Below, one piece after another: positions 3,562 through 18,161 of a DNA stretch of 20,000 nucleotides. Under the pieces are notes generated by a model. The model was not told the origin of the DNA and did no database searches. It worked only from the letters and a program-made list of their open reading frames with translations. A program made the position numbers and the translations under genes. The number at the start of each line of letters is the position of its first letter. Position 1 is the first letter of the stretch. This DNA is from an uncultured virus (IMG/VR IMGVR_UViG_2721755344_000012) (taxonomy: Duplodnaviria; Heunggongvirae; Uroviricota; Caudoviricetes), in IMG/VR virus record IMGVR_UViG_2721755344_000012, positions 56,007-76,006 of that record; one strand, 5' to 3'.

Positions 3562-6132
3562 TTAAACGAACTCGAAAGTGAACTCTCCGCCTGTACTGGC
3601 TATAAGAGCTATTGCATTTGCTAAAACTATATCGTCAGGTGATTTAGAACCGCCTGTTTTCATCTTAGCTAAATAGGAAAATCTTTTGGCCTGTTCAATA
3701 AATCTCTTACTTTGAATTACCATCTCATCCATTCTAATAGCTTTGTCAAGCAAGTCGATCATTTGGGGTCTTGATAAATTCGATGTCAACCAACCCATCT
3801 TTCTATCAGGTCCCACATAAATATTAGGATAAGCTGGATAGGCTACCGCTCCCCTTCTTACTATTCCATTTGCCAAATTCAGAATTACAGCGTGACCGTG
3901 ATTGTTTCTTTCCACAGCAAGTACCGCATTATTATATGCCTTACCAAGCCTCCATAATTTCTCACTAAATATATCAGGGGTCCACCTTCCCACCAATAAA
4001 CCTACCTGTTCTATAGGAAGAGGAAAAGTCCTTAATACCATAGCTGCTGAATAATCTGAGTGCGGATCTCCTTCTGCAACATCTGCTCCCACCACATATT
4101 TAGCCCCAGGTTGAGCCATTCTGTAAACATACATATCTCCGCCTAGCCATATCTCTGCTGGAAACTGCTCTACTAAATTCTTATCTATTTGATTTAACTT
4201 AATATTATCAAATACTGGAGTTCCTGACTTTAGAAAGACTTCTTCATCGTCGTCCTCGGGGTATTCCTGAACAAACTTAGCCCCCATCCTGAACTTCTTT
4301 TCCCTCCGCCAAGCTAACTGTTCAACAGTTAATCCAAACCTTTCTATTAATGCGACCTCTTCTTCATCCAAACTCGTAAGTATCTCTGACTTTTGCTCTT
4401 CTGTCAAATCGGTAATTTTATATTCTGAGTGCTTGTGCCACACAAAGTAGTGCCCAAAATACTCGTTTTTAACCCTTCGTTTGGGCCTGAATGGGTTTTT
4501 AGCTCCCATGTAATAGTCATAGAAGGGTCCGCCCTCCCCTCGTGCCGTAGACTCTAAAACCACGTGCCCAGTCCGAGGAACCGATTCCAATAAACCTATC
4601 AAAAAATCCTCCGTAAAGCTGGGAGAGCTCACTTCTGATAAATGAAGGTTATTAATAGTCCTGCCACGCCCAAAGTCCCTAGTTTCTGCCGAGCCAATAG
4701 TTAGAGTTGAATTTATCTTATCAAAATAAAGCTCTAATCTATTCGAGTACTTAACATGAGGCTGAAACACAGGAGCTGGTAATGGTTGACCCGCTATTGA
4801 ATCAAACATAAACTTTGAATTATGAATAATCCCGGAAACAGTTCTGTATTGATTATTAGGCTGATTCAATTTATCGTATAATTGCCCTTTATAGTAAATG
4901 CTTTCTATTTTTTTAATCTTTTGATAAATATAATCGTTGGTTTCAATAAAAGAAACCTTCCTACATTTTCTATCTAATTTTGAGTATTTTGCAAAAGTAG
5001 AACCAAACATAGTAAGACTATATAGAGGCTTTTTCCTATTATCTTTACTTTTACGAATACTTGACCAACCATAGCCAAGAGCACATATTATATCACGTAA
5101 TTGATACGCTAACTGCGGTCTGCTACTTCCATAACTATTAGCTTTTCTATTTTTTAGGTTATGCCCATCACCGTCTATTAGCCCTCTCACAAGCCCTGTA
5201 CAAAAATCTTTATTTGCATCAAAAATCCAATCTGGAATATACTTCTCATTACCATCAGAGTCTACATAAAAAGTTTCTCGAAAAAATCTACGCCAAACTT
5301 CGCTAAGAAGTTCTACTCTTAAAACATTATTTTTTACTTTTAATTTTACTTTACCTCTTATTTTTACTTCGCAAGTTTCAAAAAATCTTTTGATTCTTTC
5401 GCCGAATAGCTGCTCTTTTTTATTTAAAGTAAAAATAATATTAGAACCTCTATTCTTATCTTTTTCTACATAACCTTCCGCAAGTAATATTCCAACTACC
5501 CAACCAAACTCTTCGTTTAAATCTATTTTAGCTTCATTTACCCCGTTATAAAGAAGTTTACGACACATAAGTTCTGTATTAATGAAAATACTCTTTAATT
5601 TTCCTGTAATATTCTTCTTATCAAAAGCAATTCTATCCGATAAAGTTATGTAGCGAGCTTGCTTCCACCCCTTCTCTGTAAGAATTTTATGATCGGGGGT
5701 AACTATAATCGGATGATTTGGATTATTTCGCACCTGAATAGAAATCAAATCTCCATCCCATCGAATAGTAGAAGTACCTGATTCGCTAATTTTCTTAGGA
5801 AAACCGTTTGCTTCCAAAGTTTCAACATCTGGATGCACACAACGCTCAAATAATGCACTCGAGTCTTTCTGTGTATGGCAAACAATAATTGAAACAGTAT
5901 TTGGAACAAATAATGTATCGTGGAGGAACAAACCAAGGATCAAGGTTGAGAACCCGAGCTGCCTCGGTTTCAAGATCACGTCCCTACGTGTTCTATTATC
6001 ATAATATTGATTTTGAGCTTCGTTGAATATAAAAGGAACTACATTTCTATCTTTATCTGTAATAGAAACTAAGCTTTCGATAAAAAACTTCGGGTCTATT
6101 AAAGCACGGTCTCTAAGACTTAAATTTGTCAC
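3562..6132 (-). CDS. terL: Terminase large subunit precursor containing an intein (515 aa after splicing)
   Basis: NEAQ adenine-binding motif, Walker A-like LKPRQLGFST, Walker B LHLSE, coupling motif VLEST, nuclease motifs GADVAEG, DYSA, VERNNHG and DDIVLANAIA. Confidence 0.95.
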   Translation of the reverse strand: MTNLSLRDRALIDPKFFIESLVSITDKDRNVVPFIFNEAQNQYYDNRTRRDVILKPRQLGFSTLILGLFLHDTLFVPNTVSIIVCHTQKDSSALFERCVHPDVETLEANGFPKKISESGTSTIRWDGDLISIQVRNNPNHPIIVTPDHKILTEKGWKQARYITLSDRIAFDKKNITGKLKSIFINTELMCRKLLYNGVNEAKIDLNEEFGWVVGILLAEGYVEKDKNRGSNIIFTLNKKEQLFGERIKRFFETCEVKIRGKVKLKVKNNVLRVELLSEVWRRFFRETFYVDSDGNEKYIPDWIFDANKDFCTGLVRGLIDGDGHNLKNRKANSYGSSRPQLAYQLRDIICALGYGWSSIRKSKDNRKKPLYSLTMFGSTFAKYSKLDRKCRKVSFIETNDYIYQKIKKIESIYYKGQLYDKLNQPNNQYRTVSGIIHNSKFMFDSIAGQPLPAPVFQPHVKYSNRLELYFDKINSTLTIGSAETRDFGRGRTINNLHLSEVSSPSFTEDFLIGLLESVPRTGHVVLESTARGEGGPFYDYYMGAKNPFRPKRRVKNEYFGHYFVWHKHSEYKITDLTEEQKSEILTSLDEEEVALIERFGLTVEQLAWRREKKFRMGAKFVQEYPEDDDEEVFLKSGTPVFDNIKLNQIDKNLVEQFPAEIWLGGDMYVYRMAQPGAKYVVGADVAEGDPHSDYSAAMVLRTFPLPIEQVGLLVGRWTPDIFSEKLWRLGKAYNNAVLAVERNNHGHAVILNLANGIVRRGAVAYPAYPNIYVGPDRKMGWLTSNLSRPQMIDLLDKAIRMDEMVIQSKRFIEQAKRFSYLAKMKTGGSKSPDDIVLANAIALIASTGGEFTFEFV
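4819..5841 (-). mobile_element. Intein with LAGLIDADG homing endonuclease (residues 98-438, 341 aa)
   Basis: N-junction FER|CVHPD, block B VTPDH, LAGLIDADG motifs GILLAEG and RGLIDGDG, C-junction IIHN|SKF. Confidence 0.93.
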
Positions 6133-6239: not shown

Positions 6240-6590
6240 TTATGCCTTTTCTAGATCTCGGCCCGCCTGGTCACCGAGAACAATGTTGCTTTCTTGAGCA
6301 ACCATTTCTTGAGCAGGTTCCCTTGTTTCTTTTGTTTTATATGCTGAAGTTGTCCCTGTACCAACCAAACTAAAAAACATTATAAGTGCAGGAATCAACT
6401 GAAGCAGGATTATAATAGCCCCAAGAATTAAGAATATCCAAAGAGCCGTCCCGCCTTCTGAAAGGTCCCTCATCCTTAATCCCGACTTCGCTCCTGGATA
6501 GGTAGAAAACCAGAAGAATACAAAAGTCGCCACTGTTAAGATTAAAGACCATCTCCTCATTTTCTCACACGTGCTTGTTTTTACTCTCAT
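6240..6590 (-). CDS. Two-TM membrane protein
   Basis: Hydrophobic segments SLILTVATFVFFWF and LWIFLILGAIIILLQLIPALIMFFSLV; AAGGAGGT RBS. Confidence 0.8.
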   Translation of the reverse strand: MRVKTSTCEKMRRWSLILTVATFVFFWFSTYPGAKSGLRMRDLSEGGTALWIFLILGAIIILLQLIPALIMFFSLVGTGTTSAYKTKETREPAQEMVAQESNIVLGDQAGRDLEKA

Positions 6591-6643
6591 TTTAGTTACC
6601 TCCTTATTTATTCATTTAAGTATTTTGTCCAACTTATTCAAAG

Positions 6644-6758
6644 ACCGACGGGAGGGACTCGAACCCTCACGATCCCCTGCAAATCTTGGGTGAATTTATC
6701 GGTTTTACCAGCAGTTGATCTATCCCATCATTTAGCGTCTACATTTCGCCACCGTCGG
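6644..6758 (-). ncRNA. tRNA-like RNA (tRNA-Leu-type D arm, canonical T arm, no canonical anticodon arm, no encoded CCA)
   Basis: Acceptor CCGACGG/CCGTCGG, TG at positions 8-9, D arm GCG-AAATGTAGA-CGC, T arm GAGGG-TTCGAGT-CCCTC; about 65 nt between the D and T arms. Confidence 0.75.
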
Positions 6759-7008
6759 TCTCCGATTTATTTTTTTTCTTAAGCCTCTTGTCTAATCTAT
6801 CCAAATCCACAACAGGCAAATTAAGAGCTTGCCTCATATATTCTAAATCGTTTTTCAATCCTTTCAATGTATCACCCCAAGGCCCACAAGCATCAACAGT
6901 CCACGCTGTAACTACTTTGCTGTTTTTCCCCAAATAATAACATTCATGGATTGTAAAATACGATTCACCTTCAATCAGGCGTTTGCAAACTCTATAGTTC
7001 CAACTCAT
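6739..7008 (-). CDS. Conserved phage hypothetical protein
   Basis: MSWNYRV...IHECYY...DLEYMRQALNLPV pattern; last codons overlap the tRNA-like element. Confidence 0.8.
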   Translation of the reverse strand: MSWNYRVCKRLIEGESYFTIHECYYLGKNSKVVTAWTVDACGPWGDTLKGLKNDLEYMRQALNLPVVDLDRLDKRLKKKNKSETDGGEM

Positions 7009-7350
7009 CTAGCTACCAATATAGACCTGGCATCCATTCTGCGGGACTGGCACAAAGTACAGAATGACACCATTAATACGCCAAGTTATGTAGGCGTTAC
7101 GTCCATCCTTGTATAGGAAAACATATCCTGTTGGCATATCTATATTATCAGGTGAAGTCAAAAGCCTAATAGCTATACCATCTAGTGTGCCACCAATATA
7201 GATCACAATAATCTTATAAGCTCCCTGGTTAAAACTGAATACCTGCTGTCCAGCTACAAACTCACCATACAAACTACCAGGAGGAGCAGCTGCCGATATA
7301 TTAGGTAATAGCAACGCCCCTAATAATAACAACACAAGTAATTTTTTCAT
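7009..7350 (-). CDS. Putative secreted protein
   Basis: Sec-type signal peptide MKKLLVLLLLGALLLPNISAA; ATGA coupling. Confidence 0.75.
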   Translation of the reverse strand: MKKLLVLLLLGALLLPNISAAAPPGSLYGEFVAGQQVFSFNQGAYKIIVIYIGGTLDGIAIRLLTSPDNIDMPTGYVFLYKDGRNAYITWRINGVILYFVPVPQNGCQVYIGS

Positions 7351-17450: not shown

Positions 17451-18161
17451 TTAAACACCCTCCAAGGCGCACCAGGAATTTATAATACCATAATCTGCTT
17501 TAAAATCATTTACAGTTTTTCCATCCCTAAAAATGAAAGTGCCATTTTTCTCTCGAGGGGATAAATCTGTAGCCCAATTCTTCCCTATACTGTGTAACAT
17601 TTCGTGCTGTTCTTCCCTGCCTTTGTTCATTAACTCTTTGTGAGAAAAAAATGCCTGACAATACATTGAAAGACTATTCCGTTCCCAATCTTGACATCTC
17701 CACAAGAAATAATTAGCTATTTCCTCTTTAGGAATATTAAAAGCTCTAGCATCAAAAACAGATACTTTTCCTTCCAACCCCGTCATACCTAACTCCCAAA
17801 AATCATTGAAATAGGCAGTCATCGTTGATGCCGAAACACTCACAATTTTATTTAAATTATAGTTAAACCAGGCTTCCGTCTCCAACTTATCATAGTCGGT
17901 TAATAAGAAAGATGCTTCATCGGACTGAACATACCCGAGTTTGAAACCTTGCATTTCTTCAGCAGTTTTTTCAGTAGCATACAACATAGAGTTCATAAAA
18001 TGCGGAAAAAAGGGAGCCTCTAAATGCTTTTTCATCTTTGATGTTAGAGTATGAAATGCCTTACCATCTACCCTAATAATAACAGGCGTTCTTCTAGTAA
18101 GATAAATTCTATAGCTATCTTCGTAATTACGCTTTATTCTGTCCCCTAATTCGTTTTCCAT
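17451..18161 (-). CDS. thg1: tRNA(His) guanylyltransferase / Thg1-like protein (3'-5' polymerase)
   Basis: LGDRxK..YE, IIRVDGKAFH, YVQSDE, KIVSVSAS, FDAR, YFLWRxQDxxRNS and KNGTF motifs. Confidence 0.93.
   Translation of the reverse strand: MENELGDRIKRNYEDSYRIYLTRRTPVIIRVDGKAFHTLTSKMKKHLEAPFFPHFMNSMLYATEKTAEEMQGFKLGYVQSDEASFLLTDYDKLETEAWFNYNLNKIVSVSASTMTAYFNDFWELGMTGLEGKVSVFDARAFNIPKEEIANYFLWRCQDWERNSLSMYCQAFFSHKELMNKGREEQHEMLHSIGKNWATDLSPREKNGTFIFRDGKTVNDFKADYGIINSWCALEGV

What the first reader, a model, noticed from the sequence alone, without database searches (positions are those of the whole stretch)
6642..6761. tRNA-like RNA with an intact elbow but an expanded anticodon/variable region that can fold two ways
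Seen: on the minus strand there is a perfect 7-bp acceptor stem (extendable to 10 bp, AGACCGACGG/CCGTCGGTCT), a tRNA-Leu-type D arm (TGGCGAAATGTAGACGC) and a perfect T arm (GAGGG TTCGAGT CCCTC). About 65 nt separate the D and T arms, with no 5-bp stem/7-nt loop anticodon arm, and no CCA is encoded. The insert holds two interleaved helices, each 4 bp + 2x2 loop + 4 bp: AAATGATGGG/CCCAAGATTT and GATCAACTGC/GCAGGGGATC, plus a small TGGT-AAA-ACCG hairpin. The 3-nt and 0-nt linkers look too short for both long helices to form at once. Known: RNase P and RNase Z recognise the acceptor/T-arm elbow rather than the anticodon. Inference: this may be a non-decoding tRNA mimic (processing signal, decoy for anticodon nucleases or synthetases, or switch) or an intron-containing tRNA. 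The intact stems argue against simple decay.
Basis: partly seen in the sequence, partly recalled or inferred. Interest (0 to 1): 0.72.

Follow-up and report, generated by a model that had tools for sequence, protein, structure and literature searches.

The report
tRNA-shaped phage RNA carrying pseudoknot module
This prophage gene encodes an RNA with the top half of a leucine tRNA whose codon-reading part is replaced by a small knotted RNA module that other phages carry as a separate gene among their tRNA genes, so it looks like a natural tRNA-shaped carrier for a working RNA part whose job is still unknown.

Summary
The acceptor stem, the Leu-type D arm and the T arm are far beyond chance. The D arm is letter-identical to that of 8 ordinary tRNA-Leu genes.

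The 66-nt middle is neither random nor an intron. It belongs to an RNA family absent from Rfam, of which I collected 29 distinct copies. The family has a 19-nt invariant core (GC-UGGUAAAACCGAU-AAAU), two covarying helices (P4, P5) and a covarying loop-to-loop pseudoknot.

In the other 28 copies the module stands alone and is closed by a long stem. Many lie a few bases behind a tRNA gene. One lies just upstream of a cyanophage's two-piece tmRNA gene.

- The inner half of the other helix (UGGG/CCCA) is the pseudoknot.
- Its outer half has no comparative support.
- All these pairings are kept together across the family, so this is one fold, not a switch.

Best reading (about 0.6): a non-decoding chimeric small RNA, with a tRNA-Leu scaffold for processing and stability plus a conserved effector module. 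Processing, stability and the module's partner are inferred. The closest known relatives are the unexplained tRNA-like stable RNAs of phages T5 and T4.

The parts
6645..6758 (-). whole tRNA-shaped RNA gene (114 nt with a 7-bp acceptor stem; leader/trailer can extend the helix to 6642-6761)
   Evidence: sequence; ARAGORN with introns allowed reports 6643-6758 (genome 62649-62764)
6752..6758 (-). acceptor stem, 5' strand CCGACGG
   Evidence: 7/7 Watson-Crick with 6645-6651
6735..6751 (-). positions 8-9 plus Leu-type D arm TG-GCG-AAATGTAGA-CGC
   Evidence: identical 17-mer in 8 ordinary tRNA-Leu genes and in 16 other distinct oversized scaffolds
6724..6727 (-). pseudoknot 5' strand UGGG, inside the 14-nt linker 6721-6734
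   Evidence: aligns with the P2-loop columns 51-54 of A2; pairs with CCCA 6687-6690
6717..6720 (-). P3 5' strand GATC
   Evidence: pairs with 6671-6674; same or covarying helix at this place in relatives read by eye
6711..6714 (-). P4 5' strand CTGC
   Evidence: pairs with 6677-6680; outermost pair covaries CG17/UA8/AU3/GC1 in 29 sequences
6694..6710 (-). invariant core UGGUAAAACCGAU + AAAU (with the preceding GC: 19 invariant columns)
   Evidence: invariant in 29 of 29 sequences
6684..6693 (-). P5 mini-hairpin: UC (6693-6692) / GA (6685-6684) closing loop ACCCAA; CCCA 6690-6687 is the pseudoknot 3' strand
   Evidence: P5 pair covaries UA15/GC11/CG1; pseudoknot 87.9% paired with double changes at all 4 pairs
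6677..6680 (-). P4 3' strand GCAG
6671..6674 (-). P3 3' strand GATC, followed by GU (6670-6669) and the T stem
6652..6668 (-). T arm GAGGG-UUCGAGU-CCCUC
   Evidence: 5/5 pairs, canonical T loop
6645..6651 (-). acceptor stem, 3' strand CCGTCGG; next base (position 73) is U at 6644; no CCA encoded
6739..7008 (-). upstream 89-aa ORF whose last 7 codons and TAG stop lie inside the acceptor stem and D arm of the RNA gene
   Evidence: PHROG phrog_21321 covers residues 1-70 only

Best explanation
The locus encodes a non-decoding, chimeric small RNA made of two modules.

Module 1 is the top half of a type-II (leucine) tRNA: acceptor stem, D arm and T arm. I infer that it serves as a handle for the host's tRNA maturation machinery (RNase P at the 5' end; 3' trimming and CCA addition at the 3' end). 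I also infer that it acts as a compact, nuclease-resistant cap that gives the RNA defined ends and stability, although the gene sits inside a protein-coding operon far from any tRNA array.

Module 2 replaces the anticodon arm and variable region. It is a conserved pseudoknotted RNA:
- helices P3 and P4;
- an invariant 13-nt bulge, UGGUAAAACCGAU, that can form a 3-4 bp mini-hairpin;
- a short hairpin P5 whose loop pairs with an upstream strand.

In other phages this module is a free-standing gene of about 100-150 nt, closed by a long terminal stem and often lying next to tRNA genes. It is presumably the effector. Its 19 invariant bases across very different phages suggest that it binds one highly conserved cellular or phage partner.

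Shown: the anatomy, the module's homology and the covariation. Inferred: transcription, processing, stability, and that the module acts by binding a partner. The partner is unknown.
For: Scaffold:
- 7/7 acceptor pairs, 5/5 T-stem pairs and a canonical T loop.
- D arm identical to 8 of 8 ordinary tRNA-Leu genes with that 17-mer.

Cannot decode:
- No anticodon arm.
- ARAGORN in default mode finds nothing.
- Rfam's tRNA model is silent at E<=10.

Same scaffold, different cargo:
- The D-arm 17-mer found 16 further distinct oversized (95-230 nt) tRNA-shaped sequences of 13 unrelated insert types in viral and metagenome contigs.
- Of the 11 viral-contig hits, 8 were oversized scaffolds, 1 was the window's own record, 2 were neither, and none was an ordinary tRNA.

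Cargo is a separate module:
- blastn of the element hit Synechococcus phage BUCT-ZZ01 over the insert only (94.6% over 36 nt, E 4e-6).
- Exact-core scans gave 15 and 47 viral loci, which reduce to 29 distinct sequences.

Covariation:
- P4 outer pair: CG17/UA8/AU3/GC1, never unpaired.
- P5 pair: UA15/GC11/CG1.
- Pseudoknot: 87.9% paired, with double changes at all 4 pairs.
- Whole structure: 93.6% paired against 78.5% in shuffles (0 of 500 reach it) and 30-61% when partners are slid.

The window's copy:
- It keeps all 19 invariant bases, P3, P4 and P5.
- It has its own compensated pseudoknot (UGGG/CCCA instead of the commonest GAGA/UCUC).

Free-standing copies:
- They are closed by 8-24 bp terminal stems.
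- Many begin 3-10 nt after a CCA-ended tRNA gene.
- The motif is single-copy in this genome. In 4 of 5 other records searched it matched, once each at strong scores, with one extra weak hit (20.8 bits) in one record.

Precedent: the phage T5 record annotates RNA1 as a 'tRNA-like stable RNA with unknown functions'. By eye it has a Leu-type D arm, a T arm and an enlarged middle.
Against: - No expression data. No RNA run holds the stretch, and the promoter-like sites are no more frequent than in shuffles.
- The chimera is a singleton. Only identical copies of this phage were found, so selection on this particular fusion cannot be shown by covariation.
- The module here lacks the P1 and P2 stems that the other 28 copies have, so it might be a crippled copy.
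- None of the 16 other oversized Leu-type scaffolds searched carries this module (best 11.9 bits, E 0.6), so 'scaffold plus this cargo' is not recurrent.
- Position 73 is U and the first pair is C-G. Both are unusual for a tRNA-Leu, and the 3-bp leader/trailer extension could hinder RNase P.
- RNase P cutting at 6758 would remove the stop codon of the upstream ORF from its mRNA.
- The energy of the insert alone is no better than that of shuffles.
- R1's 52.7-bit match to the window is by construction, because the window's sequence was in the seed alignment.
Confidence: 0.6

Rival explanations
1. mRNA punctuation element. The tRNA-shaped fold serves mainly as an RNase P / RNase Z cutting site that separates the upstream small-ORF message from the terminase message, like plant-mitochondrial t-elements or the mascRNA of MALAT1. 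The released RNA itself has no job.
For: The element lies within a same-strand gene row, 55 nt upstream of the start codon (at 6590) of the 116-aa ORF 6240-6590, which has a strong AAGGAGG ribosome site. That ORF lies just upstream of the large terminase gene. No terminator-like site lies directly behind it on the minus strand. The elbow is intact.
Against: A cutting signal needs only an acceptor stem and a T arm. It does not explain a 66-nt insert that keeps 19 of 19 invariant bases and every covarying pair of an independent RNA family. Sibling scaffolds sit in unrelated gene contexts: an HNH endonuclease, ThyX, tRNA clusters. This reading is compatible with the best explanation as a side effect.
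Confidence: 0.15
2. Evolutionary relic. A phage tRNA-Leu gene was hit by recombination with a neighbouring module gene, and the dead fusion has not yet decayed.
For: The fusion is unique among the 29 module copies. P1 and P2 stems are missing. U73 and C1-G72 are odd for tRNA-Leu. No divergent relatives exist with which to show purifying selection.
Against: All scaffold stems are perfect. All 19 invariant module bases and the P3, P4, P5 and pseudoknot pairings are intact. The shortened architecture is geometrically self-consistent (my inference: with no P2 stem, the short P3+P4 stack of 10 layers matches pseudoknot plus P5 plus the 3-nt linker). At least 13 other insert types share the same oversized Leu-type scaffold, so the architecture recurs.
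Confidence: 0.12
3. Conformational switch or ligand sensor. The middle region toggles between two folds, or is a riboswitch-like aptamer carried on a tRNA body.
For: In the window alone the full 10-'bp' first helix would compete sterically with P3+P4. A contiguous invariant bulge next to a pseudoknot is reminiscent of ligand pockets.
Against: Across 29 sequences P4, P5 and the pseudoknot are kept together. The outer AAAT/ATTT half of the competing helix has no counterpart in relatives. There is no expression platform: free-standing copies are closed RNAs among tRNA genes, not 5' leaders. No Rfam riboswitch matches.
Confidence: 0.06
4. Intron-containing or otherwise decodable tRNA (an ARAGORN-style tRNA with an anticodon-loop intron), or a mini-tmRNA.
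For: ARAGORN with introns allowed reports a tRNA at 6643-6758. The nearest relative of the insert lies next to a permuted tmRNA gene.
Against: The 'spliced' product is incoherent: a Gly anticodon on a Leu body, a mismatched anticodon stem and an unstructured 12-nt variable loop. The 'intron' boundaries cut the conserved module. No group I intron or other Rfam family matches. I saw no bulge-helix-bulge motif by eye. In 17 sibling scaffolds ARAGORN proposes seven different isotypes or nothing. ARAGORN and Rfam report no tmRNA, pair 3:70 is G-C rather than G-U, and a true D stem is present.
Confidence: 0.03

Closest known systems
Phage T5 RNA1 (and RNA2), annotated in NC_005859 as 'tRNA-like stable RNA with unknown functions'
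   Same: A phage-encoded RNA of about 125-144 nt. RNA1, read by eye, has a Leu-type D arm, a T arm, a paired 5'/3' acceptor-like stem and an enlarged middle with no anticodon arm. ARAGORN does not call it a tRNA. Its function is unknown.
   Different: T5 RNA1 lies in a tRNA cluster, whereas the window's gene stands alone before the terminase genes. The inserts are unrelated by eye. T5 was not searched with model R1. Stability is documented for T5 only by the record's annotation, and nothing is known for the window.
Phage T4 rnaC and rnaD (species 1 and 2 small stable RNAs of the T4 tRNA cluster)
   Same: Stable, structured, unexplained RNAs co-located with phage tRNA genes. rnaC ends in a T-arm-like hairpin (by eye). 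The free-standing copies of the window's module occupy the same kind of place.
   Different: No sequence or model similarity: R1's best hit in the T4 locus scores 11.9 bits, E 0.6, and lies outside rnaC/rnaD. They lack a complete tRNA top half of the Leu type.
tmRNA (including the permuted two-piece form)
   Same: A tRNA top half joined to pseudoknots in place of the anticodon arm, processed by tRNA enzymes. The module's nearest relative lies directly upstream of a permuted tmRNA gene in phage BUCT-ZZ01.
   Different: No tag reading frame, no G3:U70, a real D stem, only 114 nt, and no ARAGORN or Rfam tmRNA call.
Engineered 'tRNA scaffolds' for expressing recombinant RNAs in E. coli (recalled from the literature, Ponchon and Dardel 2007; not read here)
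   Same: An RNA of interest replaces the anticodon arm of a tRNA, so that the cell processes and stabilises it as if it were a tRNA. This is the architecture proposed here.
   Different: Those are man-made. Here the arrangement is natural and the cargo is a conserved phage RNA module.
tRNA-like processing signals (plant mitochondrial t-elements; mascRNA of MALAT1, papers seen only in the listing)
   Same: Non-decoding tRNA-shaped folds recognised by RNase P / RNase Z inside longer transcripts.
   Different: Those carry no conserved foreign module in the anticodon position, and none is known from phages.

Membership tests
Decoding tRNA-Leu | 7-bp acceptor stem, T arm with T-loop consensus, type-II (3-bp stem) D arm | tested here: met
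   D arm identical to 8 ordinary tRNA-Leu genes
Decoding tRNA-Leu | 5-bp anticodon stem with 7-nt loop, and a hairpin variable arm | tested here: not met
   none in the 66-nt spacer; ARAGORN default 0 genes
Decoding tRNA-Leu | Rfam tRNA model (RF00005) at or above its gathering score | tested here: not met
   no hit at gathering score or at E<=10
Decoding tRNA-Leu | discriminator A73 (LeuRS identity element; the rule is recalled for E. coli) | tested here: not met
   position 73 is U (6644); the ordinary tRNA-Leu genes with this D arm that I read have A there
Intron-containing tRNA | removal of one segment restores a coherent anticodon arm of the isotype shown by the body | tested here: not met
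   ARAGORN -i gives Gly(gcc) on a Leu body with a G.G mismatch and a 12-nt open variable loop; inconsistent isotypes in siblings
Intron-containing tRNA | recognisable splicing apparatus (group I core, or bulge-helix-bulge) | tested here: not met
   no Rfam intron family; no bulge-helix-bulge seen by eye; the segment is instead a conserved free-standing RNA
tmRNA | tag reading frame with resume codon, G3:U70, D-loop without stem, ARAGORN or Rfam call | tested here: not met
   pair 3:70 is G-C
Phage tRNA-like stable RNAs (T5 RNA1 type; oversized Leu-type scaffolds) | tRNA-Leu-type acceptor, D and T arms around an enlarged, non-anticodon middle, phage-encoded | tested here: met
   T5 RNA1 read by eye
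Phage tRNA-like stable RNAs (T5 RNA1 type; oversized Leu-type scaffolds) | accumulates as a discrete stable RNA in infected cells | not testable with these tools
   no RNA run holds the stretch
UGGUAAAACCGAU pseudoknot module (uncatalogued family defined here) | 19 invariant core bases GC-UGGUAAAACCGAU-AAAU | tested here: met
   29 of 29 sequences including the window. All 29 copies were collected by exact match to the core, so the invariance of most of these 19 bases is partly by selection.
UGGUAAAACCGAU pseudoknot module (uncatalogued family defined here) | P4, P5 and the loop-to-loop pseudoknot pairings | tested here: met
   window: CTGC/GCAG, UC/GA, UGGG/CCCA; family covariation
UGGUAAAACCGAU pseudoknot module (uncatalogued family defined here) | long terminal stem P1, and a P2 hairpin presenting the pseudoknot strand | tested here: not met
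   absent in the window: the tRNA scaffold stands in for P1 and the pseudoknot strand lies in an open 14-nt linker
YrlA / bacterial Y RNA | permuted tRNA-like domain whose ends form a Ro-binding stem; Rfam model | tested here: not met
   the ends are in the acceptor stem and there is no Rfam hit; the architecture of the family is recalled

The most novel reading that the evidence does not exclude
Phages use the top half of tRNA-Leu as a general, exchangeable carrier for functional RNA modules. The same effector module can travel either as a stem-closed gene inside a tRNA array or plugged into a tRNA body. In the second form any operon can deliver it, because the host's own tRNA enzymes cut it out, cap it and perhaps add CCA. 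The module itself has 19 bases frozen across cyanophages, jumbo phages and soil prophages. On this reading it targets a universal component of the translation or tRNA-processing machinery, for example as a mimic of an anticodon stem-loop already paired to a codon, or as a trap for a tRNA-directed defence enzyme.
Probability: 0.3. Interest if true: 0.85.

Novelty: new variant of a known kind. Interest (0 to 1): 0.62.

Why it matters
Small stable RNAs in phage tRNA regions (T4 species 1 and 2, T5 RNA1 and RNA2) have been known for about fifty years without an assigned function.

This locus links two such classes physically. It shows that an oversized tRNA-Leu-shaped RNA can hold, in place of its anticodon arm, a module that exists on its own elsewhere. 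That supports the view that these tRNA look-alikes are carriers rather than broken tRNAs.

It also yields a compact object of about 60 nt that can be tested directly: an invariant core plus a covarying pseudoknot, suitable for pull-down, structure and knock-out experiments.

If the carrier idea holds, it is a natural counterpart of the tRNA scaffolds used in biotechnology. It would also mean that annotation pipelines, which skip these genes, are missing a class of phage effectors.

Tried and rejected
- Close relatives of the phage. blastn of 801 nt against 50,697 phage records found no match. The large terminase in viral contigs brought only its own record plus two distant hits of 26-33% identity, without the element. 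Covariation on the window's own fusion was therefore impossible.
- Sequencing runs. 13 runs were listed and no RNA holder was listed. Contigs of 4 DNA runs were laid. One contig spans the element with 0 differences, and there were no joints. This gives nothing on expression or splicing.
- Genome-contig scan with the D-arm 17-mer: 22 loci, of which 1 was an ordinary tRNA-Leu, 2 were doubtful and 19 had no tRNA features.
- ARAGORN with introns on 25 scaffold or control sequences: 12 calls. Five were ordinary tRNA-Leu and 7 were 'intron' calls of seven different isotypes. I rejected these as an artefact of forcing an intron.
- Pairwise local alignment of the inserts of the oversized scaffolds: apart from one four-member family, only 8-19-nt word matches. 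Model R1 found none of the 16 other scaffolds searched.
- Per-sequence search for the pseudoknot partner. A 4-nt complement is not significant in any single sequence (0 of 29 at p<=0.05). Only the aligned-column test carries weight.
- Antisense target of the invariant bulge in the phage genome: no site with 2 or fewer mismatches other than the element itself.
- Link to the phage's Thg1-like gene. The family occurs in 2 of 5 other records searched, so no specific association was shown.
- Rfam on 9 free-standing copies: only the neighbouring tRNAs, and nothing credible on the module.
- Earlier notes of this scan, searched by sequence: nothing.
- Papers: five full-text searches. I saw only listings and the starts of abstracts. 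None describes this module or a tRNA-embedded module in phages.
- Resemblances that I recalled (a type III antitoxin RNA repeat, the sarcin-ricin loop, the 16S 530 loop, the T-loop motif) were not tested and are not used.
Full report
**1. What is at the locus**

- a perfect 7-bp acceptor stem (6758-6752 with 6651-6645), extendable by three leader/trailer pairs;
- the D arm TG-GCG-AAATGTAGA-CGC (6751-6735);
- the T arm GAGGG-TTCGAGT-CCCTC (6668-6652);
- 66 nt between the two arms, without an anticodon arm;
- no encoded CCA.

ARAGORN in default mode finds no tRNA in the window. Rfam finds nothing in the window at gathering scores and nothing relevant in 6400-7000 at E<=10.

The window is the last 20 kb of a 76-kb IMG/VR provirus record. 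All genes lie on the minus strand. The element sits between an 89-aa ORF and a 116-aa ORF, upstream of the large terminase gene.

**2. The tRNA part is a leucine-tRNA top half shared by a class of oversized phage RNAs**

I scanned the 17-nt D arm against three collections.

Viral contigs gave 11 loci:
- 1 was the window's own record;
- 8 were tRNA-shaped sequences of 101-230 nt, with a 6-7/7 acceptor stem and a 5/5 T stem but long, unrelated middles;
- 2 had no tRNA features;
- none was an ordinary tRNA.

Genome contigs gave 22 loci: 1 ordinary tRNA-Leu(UAA), 2 doubtful and 19 without tRNA features.

Metagenome contigs gave 58 loci. Of these:
- 9 were ordinary tRNA-Leu loci;
- 14 were oversized scaffolds of 95-161 nt (10 distinct sequences);
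- 2 were the window's own record and a duplicate of L003;
- 1 was a truncated family member;
- 4 were doubtful;
- the rest had no tRNA features.

Every ordinary tRNA with this D arm that I passed to ARAGORN is tRNA-Leu, 8 of 8. Besides the window there are 16 distinct oversized sequences in 13 unrelated insert types.

One of them (L003) lies in a cluster of tRNA-Leu(CAA, AAG, UAA) genes in a 441-kb phage and reaches 38.6 bits on Rfam's tRNA model.

Position 73 in the oversized set is A in 6, U in 5 and G in 1 of the 12 that I read. The window has U. The class therefore does not uniformly keep the leucine discriminator.

Earlier notes of this scan describe the same class (e1-4035489 and others). 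I treat them as leads only, and I verified the class independently with the scans above.

**3. The middle part is a separate, conserved RNA module**

blastn of the 114-nt element against phage records gave one significant hit that covers the insert only. It is in Synechococcus phage BUCT-ZZ01, 94.6% identical over 36 nt, E 4e-6. The hit lies inside a 131-nt hairpin closed by a 24-bp stem, immediately upstream of a permuted tmRNA gene. That gene scores 111.9 bits on Rfam's tmRNA_permuted model, and ARAGORN reports a tag peptide.

Scanning viral contigs with the shared 22-mer gave 15 loci. A 17-mer gave 47 loci. I set aside ten of the 47 by eye as coding-sequence chance matches. The rest, together with BUCT-ZZ01, collapse to 29 distinct sequences including the window's.

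Read from alignments and folds, the anatomy is:
- P1: a terminal stem of 8-24 bp.
- P2: a hairpin with a loop like GUAAACGAGACAA.
- P3: a variable helix.
- P4: NUGC/GCAN.
- An invariant 13-nt bulge, UGGUAAAACCGAU.
- AAAU, followed by P5: a 2-4-bp hairpin.
- The 6-8-nt loop of P5 pairs with the P2 loop. This is the pseudoknot.

**4. Covariation**

On alignment A1 (29 sequences) the outermost P4 pair is CG 17, UA 8, AU 3, GC 1 and is never unpaired. The P5 pair is UA 15, GC 11, CG 1, other 2.

On alignment A2, which also holds the P2 loop:
- The four pseudoknot pairs are 87.9% paired, each with changes on both sides (for example AU 18, GC 6, UA 1, GU 1).
- The whole structure is 93.6% paired against 78.5 +/- 1.2% in shuffles, with 0 of 500 reaching it.
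- The slid controls give 30-61%.
- A few sequences (L105, L114 type, L118, L132) are misaligned in the P2 region by MAFFT and count as unpaired there. By eye each has its own complementary pair of loops (one search lists them).

In single sequences the 4-6-nt complementarity is not significant, 0 of 29 at p<=0.05. The evidence is the aligned covariation, not any one sequence.

P3 is supported only by eye and by minimum-energy folds: GATC/GATC, GTC/GAC, TGACAT/ATGTCA, AGTC/GACT, TCAC/GTGA. The three columns outside P4 in A1 are only 31-66% paired because the register varies.

The mini-hairpin in the invariant bulge cannot be tested, because it never varies.

No Rfam family matches the module in 9 free-standing loci.

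**5. Re-reading the window's element**

- The inner half of the first helix, UGGG (6727-6724) with CCCA (6690-6687), is the family's pseudoknot. Here it has its own compensated sequence, shared in part with BUCT-ZZ01 (GGG/CCC).
- The outer half, AAAT/ATTT, has no counterpart in relatives.
- P5 here is UC/GA (6693-6692 with 6685-6684).

With only the 4-bp pseudoknot, the geometry closes. This is my inference, not a computed model. Pseudoknot plus P5 (6-9 layers) plus the 3-nt linker AUA runs alongside the 10-layer P3/P4 stack. In free-standing copies the P2 stem adds length on one side and longer P3/P4 helices add length on the other.

The window's copy has no P1 and no P2 stem. The tRNA body takes the place of P1, and the pseudoknot strand lies in a 14-nt open linker after the D stem.

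The energy of the insert alone is no better than that of shuffles (z -0.08), as is usual for short pseudoknotted RNAs that a nested folding program cannot score.

**6. What it most likely is and does**

The gene is a fusion of two units that also exist apart:
- a tRNA-Leu top half, which elsewhere carries at least 13 other inserts;
- a pseudoknot module, which elsewhere is closed by its own stem and commonly begins 3-10 nt after a CCA-ended tRNA gene.

Free-standing copies can be released from tRNA operon transcripts when the neighbouring tRNAs are processed. This phage has only one other tRNA gene, about 10 kb away (tRNA-Thr).

I therefore infer that the tRNA body supplies what the array supplies elsewhere: recognition by RNase P and the 3'-end enzymes, and a stable closed end. 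The module is then the working part.

Its function is not known. The 19 invariant bases are shared by a cyanomyovirus, jumbo phages of 340-360 kb and this 76-kb provirus, mostly as a single copy per genome. This points to one conserved partner.

A side effect is worth testing. Cutting at 6758 would sever the upstream ORF's message before its stop codon, which lies in the D loop at 6741-6739.

**7. Rivals**

- A pure mRNA-punctuation role does not explain the conserved cargo.
- A dead recombinant cannot be excluded, because the fusion is a singleton. But every stem and every invariant base is intact.
- A two-state switch is contradicted by the joint conservation of the pairings.
- An intron-bearing tRNA and a tmRNA both fail their defining tests.

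**8. Comparison with known things, and novelty**

The phage T5 record annotates RNA1 and RNA2 as 'tRNA-like stable RNA with unknown functions'. RNA1, read by eye, has a Leu-type D arm, a T arm and an enlarged middle. The T4 record annotates rnaC and rnaD as small stable RNAs in its tRNA cluster. The kind is therefore known, though unexplained.

What is new here:
- the pseudoknot module as a family, absent from Rfam 15 and not found in five full-text paper searches, of which I saw only listings;
- its presence inside a tRNA-Leu scaffold, which ties the two classes together.

Limits:
- There are no expression data.
- All family members were collected through exact matches to the core, so its invariance is partly by selection and more divergent members are missed.
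- R1's match to the window is by construction.
- The host is unknown.

Noticed in passing
window 3562-6132 (-): The 856-aa large terminase is interrupted by an intein with a LAGLIDADG homing-endonuclease domain. Pfam gives Intein_splicing over residues 126-437 and LAGLIDADG_3 over 311-378. The PHROG terminase matches cover only residues 13-101 and 470-842.
   Followed up: partly
window 17451-18161 (-): The phage encodes a Thg1-like tRNA-His guanylyltransferase (PHROG 4717, E 5e-78; Pfam Thg1, 91 bits), an enzyme that adds nucleotides to tRNA 5' ends. Two of five other phage records holding scaffolds or modules also have one. No specific link to the tRNA-shaped RNA was shown.
   Followed up: partly
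window 6739-6761 (-): The upstream 89-aa ORF runs 20 nt into the RNA gene and takes its TAG stop from the D loop. Its family match ends at residue 70, so the tail may be read-through into the RNA gene. RNase P cleavage would leave the message without a stop codon.
   Followed up: no
L096 (Synechococcus phage BUCT-ZZ01, ON615601.1) 1438-1950 and 410-485: The record annotates 'hypothetical proteins' over what Rfam and ARAGORN identify as a permuted two-piece tmRNA gene (tag ANDETFSMALAA) preceded by the pseudoknot module. A nearby tRNA with anticodon CUA (called tRNA-Pyl by ARAGORN) looks like an amber suppressor.
   Followed up: partly
L006 1687-2274 and L007 1720-2280: An HNH-AP2 homing-endonuclease gene lies directly behind one family of oversized Leu-type scaffolds. 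In the sister loci L009/L010 the same place holds ThyX and a dCTP deaminase.
   Followed up: no
L100 168-282 (-): A 115-nt match to Rfam's tRNA model (59.4 bits), downstream of the module in a 360-kb phage. It is far longer than a normal tRNA and may be another tRNA with an insert.
   Followed up: no
L011 and L072 inserts: Two unrelated oversized scaffolds share the words CAGGGTGGG and GCAGAG(G)CA in their inserts. This may be a second cargo module. It was not pursued.
   Followed up: no
L040 insert versus window 6677-6720: The L040 scaffold has words resembling the window's module (TTGCTGGCAAATC; CCCAAGAATTGAGCG) with a large insertion in between, but model R1 does not score it at E<=10. It may be a very divergent relative, or chance.
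   Followed up: partly
window 6300-7100 in public runs: Near-identical DNA of this phage region occurs in contigs of soil, sediment and groundwater metagenome runs from five studies. Only two single-base differences were seen, both outside the RNA gene.
   Followed up: partly
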